Shown here one piece after another: positions 15,876 through 16,633 of a stretch of DNA of 64,000 bases. Made by a program: the position numbers and the translations under genes. Where the stretch lies: sequence record PQ631072.1; one strand, 5' to 3'. The stretch comes from Escherichia phage EC.P2. The number at the start of each line of letters is the position of its first letter. Position 1 is the first letter of the stretch. The notes under the pieces are model-generated. The model was not told where the DNA came from and made no database searches. It worked only from the letters and a program-made list of their open reading frames with translations.

Positions 15876-16358
15876 ATGGAACAACAAAAAGATAATACTA
15901 TTGCAAAATTTGCTCGTCCAGAAGTAATGGTTGAAATTGATCTGGATGAAGGACGCAGTGTAAAATTTAGAGTTCTCAAGTGGAGTCCAACTAAAGTTTT
16001 TGAAAGGATTCCAGAACTAGGTAGTGTACTAGCTGTTCCTATGACAATGTATAATACTGCTCTTATGTCAGCAGATGAAGATCTAGAAGCTCGTATTGCT
16101 ATGGCGCTGATCCAGTTATTCAGTGGTCTGGAAGAAAAAAACTTAGCCGCATTCTTACGTAAAATTTTAGATGAAGTTTACACAGAAGCAGGACACAGTG
16201 TTTCCGATAATTTTGATGAATTGTTTTTTGCTCACCCAGAATTAGTTGTTGACTTAGCTGCAAAAGTTCTTGAGGTGAACTATGCCCCTTTTTTCAAACG
16301 AGGTTTCGGAAAACTGTTGACCCAATTTCAAGGAATAGAGACTCTAGCGAAGAGTTAA
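15876..16358 (+). CDS. tail assembly chaperone (G-like)
   Basis: ORF between tube and tape measure; contains slippery heptamer near its 3' end. Confidence 0.55.
   Translation: MEQQKDNTIAKFARPEVMVEIDLDEGRSVKFRVLKWSPTKVFERIPELGSVLAVPMTMYNTALMSADEDLEARIAMALIQLFSGLEEKNLAAFLRKILDEVYTEAGHSVSDNFDELFFAHPELVVDLAAKVLEVNYAPFFKRGFGKLLTQFQGIETLAKS
16289..16295 (+). promoter_or_regulatory. -1 programmed ribosomal frameshift slippery site T_TTT_TTC
   Basis: Heptamer TTTTTTC in X_XXY_YYZ register of the upstream ORF; the -1 frame is open from 16274 through 16633. Confidence 0.6.
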
Positions 16359-16633
16359 GTCCGGCAATTAAATCAGCAATTGAAATTGCCTCACAAACCC
16401 TTAGCTTGACATGGTATGAAGTAATTCTTTGTAAGGTAATTAAGAATACCTCCGAAACCTTGTCCTCGTTAGATAATTATGGTGTAGATTATCTACTTAA
16501 AATTTATGAATATTTAACATTCGAAGATTATGTACAAGATCTTCACGTTAAAGATGCGGATATTAAACGTGGTCAACAGAGAACAATAAGAGAACTGGAT
16601 ACGGCTATGAAAAAATTAATTCCAGATTCATAA
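16289..16633 (+). CDS. tail assembly chaperone frameshift extension (GT-like product, -1 frame)
   Basis: Downstream ORF lacks ATG and RBS (track start is TTG 16406) but is in the -1 frame and overlaps the upstream ORF across the slippery site. Confidence 0.5.
   Translation, partial: FFQTRFRKTVDPISRNRDSSEELSPAIKSAIEIASQTLSLTWYEVILCKVIKNTSETLSSLDNYGVDYLLKIYEYLTFEDYVQDLHVKDADIKRGQQRTIRELDTAMKKLIPDS

What the first reader, a model, noticed from the sequence alone, without database searches (positions are those of the whole stretch)
16274..16633. Programmed -1 frameshift (T_TTT_TTC) joining the two tail-assembly chaperone ORFs
The ORF after the tube gene contains the slippery heptamer TTTTTTC at 16289-16295 in X_XXY_YYZ register. 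The next ORF has no ATG and no ribosome-binding site, lies in the -1 frame, and is open from 16274. This is the conserved G/GT chaperone arrangement upstream of tape-measure genes, predicting a fusion of roughly 250 aa.
Basis: seen in the sequence. Interest (0 to 1): 0.45.

Follow-up and report, generated by a model that had tools for sequence, protein, structure and literature searches.

The report
Tail chaperone -1 frameshift site
This phi92-like E. coli phage almost certainly uses the textbook ribosomal -1 frameshift to make a short and a long tail-assembly chaperone; public records of this phage group do not annotate it, but it is an ordinary feature.

Summary
The window is a phi92-like myovirus (Justusliebigvirus, 99% identical to several GenBank phages). 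The gene order is sheath, tube, chaperone G (15876-16358, Pfam Phage_TAC_15), a -1-frame ORF open 16274-16633, then the tape measure gene (16653-18632).

T_TTT_TTC sits at 16289-16295 in the G reading register. Together they form a tandem slippery decamer, and both slips give the same 252-aa GT protein (..NYAPFF|QTRFRK..).

By chance alone, an in-register heptamer in the 27-codon overlap is only about 0.12 expected. The comparative evidence carries the case:
- 31 of 33 distinct alleles from Stephanstirmvirinae and Vequintavirinae (G only about 30% identical) keep TTTTTTC in register. The other two use CCCTTTT or AAATTTT.
- The -1 ORF is always open to just before the tape measure gene.
- Conserved T-domain residues and a coding substitution pattern extend upstream of any start codon.
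- Start-codon positions are not conserved, and there is no ribosome-binding site.

No conserved downstream RNA structure was found. An upstream Shine-Dalgarno-like GAGGTGA is a possible stimulator. The verdict is a new, unannotated member of the well-known G/GT kind, homologous to a site already proposed in sister clades. No protein data were available.

The parts
15351..15830 (+). Tail tube gene (159 aa), immediately upstream of the chaperone gene
   Evidence: phrog_280 at 1.8e-36 and PF11681. Annotated as tail tube or virion structural protein in relatives.
15834..15853 (+). Terminator-like hairpin followed by a T-run, between the tube and chaperone genes. It may attenuate read-through into the G/T/tape-measure genes.
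   Evidence: The same position is annotated as a terminator in phAPEC8. The function is inferred.
15876..16358 (+). G: tail assembly chaperone, 160 aa, 18.1 kDa, the product of standard decoding. Its own ribosome-binding site is GAGAGG.
   Evidence: PF21822 Phage_TAC_15 at 80.8 bits and phrog_3840 at 4.4e-54.
16272..16278 (+). Shine-Dalgarno-like GAGGTGA inside G, with 10 nt between it and the T_TTT_TTC heptamer. It is a candidate 5' stimulator of the frameshift.
   Evidence: Read from the sequence. The Glu codon is the rare GAG (21% usage in this window), and its third base is invariant in 12 Stephanstirmvirinae alleles. An SD-like core lies 12-14 nt upstream in 24 of 33 distinct alleles. It cannot be separated from the conserved L-E-V residues, so this is inferred.
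16286..16295 (+). Tandem slippery decamer C_CCT_TTT_TTC. It holds two overlapping in-register heptamers, C_CCT_TTT (16286-16292) and T_TTT_TTC (16289-16295). Either slip gives the same protein.
   Evidence: All 10 bases are invariant in 12 diverged alleles. This includes 16286, the third base of a codon whose amino acid varies (Ala, Gly or Ser).
16295..16633 (+). T segment: -1-frame codons decoded after the slip (112 aa plus stop). It comprises a short conserved RFR motif, a variable linker and a small helical domain. It is expressed only as the C-terminal part of the 252-aa GT protein.
   Evidence: It matches phrog_16039 at 3.8e-45, a family of unknown function. The AlphaFold model has a disordered first 18 residues, followed by helices.
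16653..18632 (+). Tape measure protein gene (659 aa). It starts at TTG, with a GGAGG ribosome-binding site at 16642-16646.
   Evidence: phrog_16051 at 1325 bits. Sequence read.

Best explanation
**Proposed mechanism**

A minority of ribosomes translating the chaperone gene G slip back one nucleotide on the decamer C_CCU_UUU_UUC (16286-16295).
- Slip at the first heptamer: tRNA-Pro in the P site and tRNA-Phe in the A site re-pair from CCU-UUU to CCC-UUU.
- Slip at the second heptamer: two tRNA-Phe re-pair from UUU-UUC to UUU-UUU.
- In both cases the next codon read is in the -1 frame, and the protein continues ...NYAPFF-QTRFRK... to the stop at 16631-16633.

The result is two proteins from one mRNA: abundant G (160 aa) and rare GT (252 aa).

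**Inferred function, by analogy with lambda gpG/gpGT**

The shared G part would coat the tape measure protein. The T part would recruit the tube protein so that the tube, and then the sheath, polymerise to the right length. Neither protein would end up in the virion.

**What is shown and what is inferred**
- Shown here: the sequence anatomy and its evolutionary conservation.
- Inferred: the slip itself, its efficiency, the protein partners, and any role of the upstream SD-like GAGGUGA.
For: **Anatomy and register**
The coordinates and register are verified.

**G is a chaperone in the expected place**
G matches PF21822 and phrog_3840 and lies between the tube and tape measure genes.

**The slippery site is conserved at the nucleotide level**
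- TTTTTTC is in register in 31 of 33 distinct 90-nt contexts from 63 loci of Stephanstirmvirinae and Vequintavirinae, where G is only 25-34% identical.
- The exceptions carry other in-register heptamers at the same place: CCCTTTT in L042 and L047, and AAATTTT in Vibrio phage S4-7.
- Synonymous positions 16289 and 16292 are invariant. So is 16286, even though its codon changes amino acid. Mean third-position diversity in the rest of G is 0.57.

**The T segment is coding but cannot start on its own**
- The -1 ORF is open from before the heptamer to just before the tape measure gene in every complete locus.
- Conserved T-frame residues (RFR..SP.I..A...A....SL.W) lie upstream of the first start codon. 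That first start falls anywhere from codon 30 to codon 69 after the slip site in different phages.
- Positions 16359-16405 show the coding pattern in the -1 frame: diversity 0.41/0.29/0.66 by codon position, against 0.43/0.30/0.63 in the rest of T.
- There is no SD before TTG 16406. The phi92 record annotates ribosome-binding sites for genes 132 and 134 but none for 133.

**The motif is known to be efficient**
H_HH.U_UU.Y heptamers, which include both heptamers here, are listed among the most efficient -1 motifs in E. coli (PMC4066793).

**Sister clades**
The same kind of site, a GTTTTT motif with an uninterrupted -1 frame, has been proposed for the related Vandenendeviridae and Andersonviridae. 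It is mentioned for phage Moogle (PMC12846349; PMC4319497).
Against: - There is no protein-level evidence. No mass spectrometry, ribosome profiling or reporter data were available.
- No convincing stimulatory RNA structure lies downstream. The 50 nt after the site fold worse than shuffles (z = +1.3). The 112-nt window gives z = -0.7. Consensus structures are weak, at -0.5 and -5.9 kcal/mol, with little covariation.
- The conserved Phe-Phe could partly reflect a protein constraint on G.
- No lineage was found with G and T fused in frame. That would have been independent proof that T is an extension of G.
- None of about 20 GenBank records inspected annotates a joined CDS.
Confidence: 0.9

Rival explanations
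1. The downstream ORF is a separate small gene (75 aa), translated independently from TTG at 16406, as most GenBank records annotate it. Phi92 gp133 is an example.
For: This is the annotation in phi92, PaulScherrer, phAPEC8 and others. TTG is a legal bacterial start, and the ORF lister reports it.
Against: - There is no Shine-Dalgarno sequence before 16406, and the phi92 annotators list none for gene 133.
- The first start codon lies at very different positions in relatives: codon 30 to 69 after the slip site, and sometimes after the conserved Trp.
- Conserved residues and a coding substitution pattern extend upstream of the TTG, through 16359-16405.
- The -1 frame stays open back to the slippery site in all loci.
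Confidence: 0.04
2. The frame change happens in the RNA and not on the ribosome. RNA polymerase stutters on the T6 run and adds one extra U to a fraction of transcripts.
For: A homopolymeric T6 run is present, and an extra U would put T in frame. Sequence data alone cannot separate the two mechanisms in this genome.
Against: - Six residues is short for bacterial transcriptional slippage. This rests on established knowledge that efficient slippage needs runs of about 8-9 or more; it was not tested here.
- What is conserved is the X_XXY_YYZ register, not run length. Relatives use CCCTTTT (T4) or AAATTTT at the same place.
- Position 16286 (C) is selected although it lies outside the T run.
Confidence: 0.04
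3. The overlap and the heptamer are fortuitous. The T-frame ORF is not expressed or not needed.
For: An in-register heptamer in a 27-codon overlap has roughly a 0.1 chance expectation in a single genome.
Against: - T-frame homologues occur in 336 phage records and form their own PHROG families.
- The T frame shows a coding substitution pattern.
- The site is conserved across two subfamilies.
Confidence: 0.01

Closest known systems
Phage lambda gpG/gpGT and the conserved G/GT frameshift of long-tailed dsDNA phages (Levin 1993; Xu, Hendrix & Duda 2004, 2013, 2014; as summarised in PMC5009743)
   Same: - Two overlapping ORFs lie between the major tail or tube gene and the tape measure gene.
- A -1 slip on an in-register heptamer near the 3' end of G gives a rare long form that shares its N-terminus with the abundant short form.
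- No strong downstream structure is needed.
   Different: - The slippery sequence is C_CCU_UUU_UUC, against G_GGA_AAG in lambda.
- The host virion is a 146-150 kb contractile-tailed myovirus.
- There is no detectable sequence similarity to lambda G or T.
- The efficiency and the G:GT ratio are unknown.
P2 gpE/gpE+E' (myovirus tail chaperone frameshift; T_TTT_TTG as I recall it, from memory and not checked here)
   Same: It is a contractile-tailed phage with a T-rich heptamer and a -1 frameshift in front of the tape measure gene. PMC5009743 notes 2- to 3-fold higher efficiency in P2-like phages.
   Different: The protein families differ. No homology was detected, and the P2 heptamer was not verified with tools here.
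Proposed -1 frameshift in the TAC locus of Vandenendeviridae (Pakpunavirus Adele) and Andersonviridae (Moogle and Felix O1 relatives): PMC12846349, PMC4319497
   Same: - These are related large myoviruses with the same sheath, tube, TAC, tape measure gene order.
- They have an invariant T-run (GTTTTT) near the 3' end of TAC-N and an uninterrupted -1 frame.
- The downstream ORF is routinely mis-annotated as a hypothetical protein.
- Vequintavirinae alleles here read G TGT TTT TTC, which contains that motif.
   Different: - That paper does not treat Stephanstirmvirinae.
- In Stephanstirmvirinae the base before the T-run is C, forming a second heptamer (CCCTTTTTTC) not described there.
- I did not test homology between this G and the Pakpunavirus TAC.
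E. coli dnaX tau/gamma -1 frameshift
   Same: It is a bacterial -1 slip on a heptamer with an internal Shine-Dalgarno-like element upstream. Here that element is GAGGUGA, 10 nt before the heptamer, inside the 6-17 nt range used in PMC4066793.
   Different: - dnaX also has a strong downstream hairpin. None is detectable here.
- The dnaX frameshift product is shorter, not longer.
- The SD-like element is absent in 9 of 33 alleles.

Membership tests
G/GT tail assembly chaperone frameshift (Xu, Hendrix & Duda 2004 type) | A pair of ORFs located between the major tail or tube gene and the tape measure gene | tested here: met
   Tube 15351-15830, G 15876-16358, T frame to 16633, tape measure gene 16653-18632.
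G/GT tail assembly chaperone frameshift | The upstream ORF is a tail assembly chaperone | tested here: met
   PF21822 Phage_TAC_15 at 80.8 bits (cutoff 22) and phrog_3840 at 4.4e-54.
G/GT tail assembly chaperone frameshift | The downstream ORF overlaps the 3' end of G in another frame and lacks its own start and ribosome-binding site | tested here: met
   It is in the -1 frame with an 85-nt overlap. The first start is TTG at 16406 with no SD. Start positions are not conserved in relatives.
G/GT tail assembly chaperone frameshift | A slippery sequence in the correct register inside the overlap | tested here: met
   C_CCT_TTT and T_TTT_TTC at 16286-16295. Both belong to the high-efficiency class H_HH.U_UU.Y in E. 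coli (PMC4066793).
G/GT tail assembly chaperone frameshift | The arrangement and the slippery site are conserved among diverged relatives | tested here: met
   31 of 33 distinct alleles keep TTTTTTC, and the other two carry alternative heptamers. The -1 ORF is always open to just before the tape measure gene. Synonymous sites are invariant.
G/GT tail assembly chaperone frameshift | Two proteins, G and GT, are made in a fixed ratio, and both are required for tail assembly | not testable with these tools
   This needs mass spectrometry, western blots and genetics.
G/GT tail assembly chaperone frameshift | The G part binds the tape measure protein, the T part binds the tube protein, and both are absent from virions | not testable with these tools
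   The T model is a small helical domain after a disordered linker. It has no informative structural neighbours and no PDB or Pfam match.
dnaX-type stimulated -1 frameshift | An upstream Shine-Dalgarno-like stimulator 6-17 nt 5' of the heptamer | tested here: inconclusive
   GAGGTGA lies at 16272-16278. The rare GAG codon is invariant in Stephanstirmvirinae. However, the element is missing in 9 of 33 alleles and is confounded with the conserved L-E-V residues.
dnaX-type stimulated -1 frameshift | A stable downstream hairpin or pseudoknot 5-9 nt 3' of the heptamer | tested here: not met
   Folding z-scores are +1.33 and -0.74. Consensus folds are -0.48 and -5.91 kcal/mol with almost no covariation.

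The most novel reading that the evidence does not exclude
The site may be tuned in a phage-specific way, beyond being a plain G/GT slip.
- Stephanstirmvirinae have evolved a tandem double-slip decamer, C_CCU_UUU_UUC, with an internal SD-like GAGGUGA.
- The phage's own adjacent tRNA genes, Gln(UUG), Pro(UGG) and Phe(GAA) at 1713-1950, decode exactly the CCU-UUU-UUC-CAA shift-site codons.
- These tRNAs could set or time the G:GT ratio during infection.

Nothing tested here excludes this. The tRNA coincidence is not statistically significant (about 0.25 by chance).
Probability: 0.06. Interest if true: 0.5.

Novelty: new member of a known kind. Interest (0 to 1): 0.2.

Why it matters
The main value is for annotation. 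In phi92, phAPEC8 and rV5-like phages, many of which are therapy and biocontrol candidates, the T segment is recorded as a stand-alone 'hypothetical protein' or left unannotated. PHROG families 16039 and 10409 are labelled 'unknown function'.

Recognising the 252-aa GT product fixes one gene model in several hundred genomes and assigns a function to those families.

The tandem decamer and the internal SD-like element make a compact natural test case for stimulator-poor -1 frameshifting in E. coli. No new biology is implied.

Tried and rejected
1. **Downstream stimulatory structure.** I folded single sequences over two windows and made consensus folds for the two subfamilies. Nothing beat shuffles and nothing showed covariation.
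2. **The conserved GGTTTCG 6-9 nt downstream as an RNA element.** I rejected it. Its spacing differs by 3 nt between the subfamilies, and dual coding explains it (G-F in the G frame, R-F-R in the T frame).
3. **A natural in-frame G-T fusion as a 'Rosetta stone'.** All T homologues found are 55-138 aa ORFs and none carries an N-terminal TAC domain.
4. **Structure of the full GT fusion.** The T-only model is of moderate quality (pLDDT 70.5), and its only structural neighbour is the phAPEC8 orthologue.
5. **PDB sequence searches with G and with T.** These found nothing meaningful.
6. **A joined CDS in GenBank records of this clade.** None was found in about 20 records.
7. **Literature on this clade's frameshift.** Nothing turned up for phi92, phAPEC8 or rV5, only for sister clades.
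8. **The A_AAA_AAC heptamer at 16136-16142 in G.** It is a dead end of 6 codons in the -1 frame.

Full report
**What the window is**

The region 15300-18700 is 99% identical over its full length to Escherichia phages W22, PaulScherrer, muut and phi92, all Justusliebigvirus in the Stephanstirmvirinae. These are myoviruses of 146-150 kb.

The local gene order on the + strand is as follows:
- tail sheath, 13886-15292 (phrog_205)
- tail tube, 15351-15830 (phrog_280, PF11681)
- a 160-aa ORF, 15876-16358
- a -1-frame ORF ending at 16633
- the tape measure gene, 16653-18632 (phrog_16051, 1325 bits)

The 160-aa ORF is a tail assembly chaperone. It matches PF21822 Phage_TAC_15 at 80.8 bits against a cutoff of 22, and phrog_3840 at 4.4e-54.

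**Checking the observation**

The G frame reads ...GTG AAC TAT GCC CCT TTT TTC AAA CGA..., giving V-N-Y-A-P-F-F-K-R. TTTTTTC at 16289-16295 is therefore T_TTT_TTC in X_XXY_YYZ register.

The -1 frame has a TGA at 16271-16273. It is open from 16274 to the TAA at 16631-16633.

Slipping gives 140 G-frame residues plus 112 T-frame residues, a total of 252 aa and 28.8 kDa. G alone is 160 aa and 18.1 kDa.

The first possible initiation codon in the -1 ORF is TTG at 16406, preceded by cacaaacccttagc with no Shine-Dalgarno sequence. By contrast, G has GAGAGG and the tape measure gene has GGAGG in front of their starts. The phi92 GenBank record lists ribosome-binding sites for genes 132 and 134 but none for gene 133.

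C_CCT_TTT at 16286-16292 is also in register, so the site is a tandem decamer, C_CCT_TTT_TTC. A slip at either heptamer yields the identical protein...NYAPFF|QTRFRK....

**Is it more than chance?**

In one genome, only weakly. In-register X_XXY_YYZ heptamers occur at 0.44% of codons in this window's long ORFs. About 0.12 are expected in the 27 codons where a slip would be productive. The weight of the case is comparative.

**Comparative evidence**

I collected the locus from GenBank phages of both subfamilies:
- Stephanstirmvirinae: phAPEC8, KP13-26, 05F01, KP13-16.
- Vequintavirinae: rV5, Av-05, SalP219, phiTE, pEa_SNUABM_55, FENT2.

To these I added Vibrio phage S4-7 and 46 IMG/VR loci. G is only 25-34% identical between the two subfamilies.

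- Slippery site. Of 33 distinct 90-nt contexts, 31 have TTTTTTC in register. One has CCCTTTT and one has AAATTTT at the equivalent place. That the alternatives are again in-register heptamers, and not T-runs, argues for ribosomal rather than transcriptional slippage.
- Open frame. In every complete locus the -1 frame is open from before the heptamer to just upstream of the tape measure gene, over 104-149 codons.
- Invariant bases. In 12 diverged Stephanstirmvirinae alleles, all ten bases 16286-16295 are invariant. This includes the purely synonymous positions 16289 and 16292. Average third-position diversity in the rest of G is 0.57.
- Position 16286. It is the third base of a codon whose amino acid changes (GCC Ala, GGC Gly, TCC Ser), yet it is always C. 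C-ending codons are rare in this genome (GGC 9%, CCC 2%). That points to selection on the nucleotide, and so on the first heptamer.

**Is the T frame coding, and can it start by itself?**

An alignment of the T-frame translations shows three parts. First comes a conserved FF-x-x-RFR motif right after the slip site. Next is a variable linker, which is Gly/Ser/Asp-rich in Vequintavirinae. Last is a conserved helical domain beginning (L/I)(S/T)P..(I/V)..A...A.....SL.W(Y/F).

The first ATG, GTG or TTG in the T frame falls at very different positions in different phages. It lies between codon 30 and codon 69 after the slip, and in several phages it lies after the conserved Trp. Independent initiation would therefore truncate conserved sequence.

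Positions 16359-16405 lie after the G stop and before the TTG. Nucleotide diversity by -1-frame codon position there is 0.41/0.29/0.66. That matches the rest of T (0.43/0.30/0.63) and the pattern of G in its own frame (0.33/0.21/0.57). The stretch is thus protein-coding with no start codon available.

Inside the overlap the pattern is flattened (0.34/0.30/0.48 in the G frame), as expected for dual coding.

**Stimulators**

No downstream structure stands out:
- The 50 nt after the site fold worse than shuffled controls (z = +1.33).
- A 112-nt window gives z = -0.74.
- Consensus folds for the two subfamilies are -0.48 and -5.91 kcal/mol, with almost no compensatory change.

The conserved GGTTTCG block downstream sits 6 nt from the heptamer in one subfamily and 9 nt in the other. 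It encodes G-F in the G frame and R-F-R in the T frame, so dual coding explains it.

That is within the 6-17 nt range used for SD-type stimulators in PMC4066793. Its Glu codon is the rare GAG (21% usage here), and that codon's third base is invariant in Stephanstirmvirinae.

However, the element coincides with the conserved L-E-V residues, and 9 of 33 alleles lack it. I treat it as a candidate stimulator only.

Lambda-type G/GT sites work at low efficiency without strong stimulators. This is established knowledge, summarised in PMC5009743. The absence of a hairpin is therefore not evidence against the frameshift.

**Motif efficiency**

In E. coli the tetramer hierarchy is A_AA.G >> U_UU.C > U_UU.U. 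H_HH.U_UU.Y heptamers are listed among the most efficient. That class includes both U_UU.U_UU.C and C_CC.U_UU.U (PMC4066793).

**Mechanism proposed**

A small fraction of ribosomes slip -1 on C_CCU_UUU_UUC. The tRNA pair is either tRNA-Pro with tRNA-Phe or two tRNA-Phe. These ribosomes then decode CAA ACG AGG TTT CGG... up to the stop at 16631. This yields a minor 252-aa GT alongside the major 160-aa G.

The functional roles are inferred by analogy with lambda (PMC5009743):
- The G moiety would bind the tape measure protein.
- The T moiety would bind the tube protein and nucleate its polymerisation.
- Both would leave the finished tail.

The anatomy and its conservation are shown here. The slip, its rate and the binding partners are inferred.

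**Rivals**

- Independent initiation at TTG 16406, the GenBank gene model. The missing ribosome-binding site, the non-conserved start positions and the coding signal upstream all contradict it.
- Transcriptional slippage on T6. It cannot be excluded from sequence alone. It is disfavoured by the short run, by selection on C16286 outside the run, and by relatives that use CCCTTTT or AAATTTT.
- A fortuitous, unexpressed ORF. This is excluded by T homologues in 336 phage records, by T's own PHROG families, and by the coding substitution pattern.

**Comparison with what is known**

This is the conserved tail-chaperone frameshift of long-tailed phages, as in lambda G/GT and P2 E/E+E'.

For sister clades of this phage group, a December 2025 paper argues for the same -1 frameshift. 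It covers 159 Vandenendeviridae and 231 Andersonviridae genomes. It notes an invariant GTTTTT motif and points out that the downstream ORF is routinely mis-annotated (PMC12846349). The Moogle genome announcement mentions a tape measure chaperone with a translational frameshift (PMC4319497). The Vequintavirinae alleles here read G TGT TTT TTC and contain that motif.

For Stephanstirmvirinae I found no paper describing it. None of about 20 GenBank records carries a joined CDS. They show either a 64-84 aa 'hypothetical protein' or an unannotated gap.

**Dead ends**

- No in-frame G-T fusion exists among detectable T homologues; all are 55-138 aa.
- The full GT fusion could not be submitted for structure prediction.
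- The T-only model has pLDDT 70.5 and pTM 0.39. Residues 1-18 are disordered, followed by helices. Its only structural match is the phAPEC8 orthologue.
- PDB sequence searches with G and with T were empty.

**Verdict**

This is a new, currently unannotated member of a very well-known kind. It is valuable for annotation but not surprising. Interest 0.2. Confidence that a -1 ribosomal frameshift produces GT here is about 0.9.

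Noticed in passing
window 222-2592 (especially 1713-1950): There is an array of 14 phage tRNA genes. Gln(UUG), Pro(UGG) and Phe(GAA) are adjacent, and they are the tRNAs that would decode the shift-site codons CCU-UUU-UUC|CAA. The chance that all three amino acids are covered is about 0.25, so this is probably coincidence. The tRNA-Phe has A36-A37-A38.
   Followed up: partly
window 15834-15853 and 18638-18700: A terminator-like hairpin lies between the tube and chaperone genes; phAPEC8 annotates a terminator at the same place. A strong terminator-like hairpin follows the tape measure gene, and after it comes an 11/12 sigma-70-like promoter at 18671-18700. Together these suggest the chaperone and tape measure genes are expressed by attenuated read-through from the sheath/tube transcript.
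   Followed up: no
window 16136-16142: A third in-register heptamer, A_AAA_AAC, lies in G at codon 88. A -1 slip there would terminate after 6 codons. The motif is of low efficiency according to PMC4066793.
   Followed up: yes
window 16653-18632 (about 16850-16960): The tape measure gene starts at TTG behind a perfect GGAGG. Near its N-terminus it carries a Gly/Ser/Pro-rich low-complexity stretch, GGGNPPPIPPTGGSSGGGKGGSGRGGSGSSGG.
   Followed up: no
GenBank MG065639, MG065656, MG065650 and other 'Campylobacter phage' records: Unannotated records labelled as Campylobacter jejuni phages are 99% identical to this E. coli phage locus, or to phAPEC8 or rV5 types. They are probably coliphage contaminants or mislabelled hosts.
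   Followed up: no
L011 (Pectobacterium phage phiTE) 1600-2157: In phiTE the T-frame ORF is followed by an annotated terminator and two extra small or unrelated ORFs, not directly by the tape measure gene. This departs from the otherwise fixed order.
   Followed up: no
PV659873.1 Escherichia phage WPEC1 (161 kb): The T-domain query matches four places in this one record. That suggests a duplicated or mis-assembled tail-chaperone region (H164).
   Followed up: no
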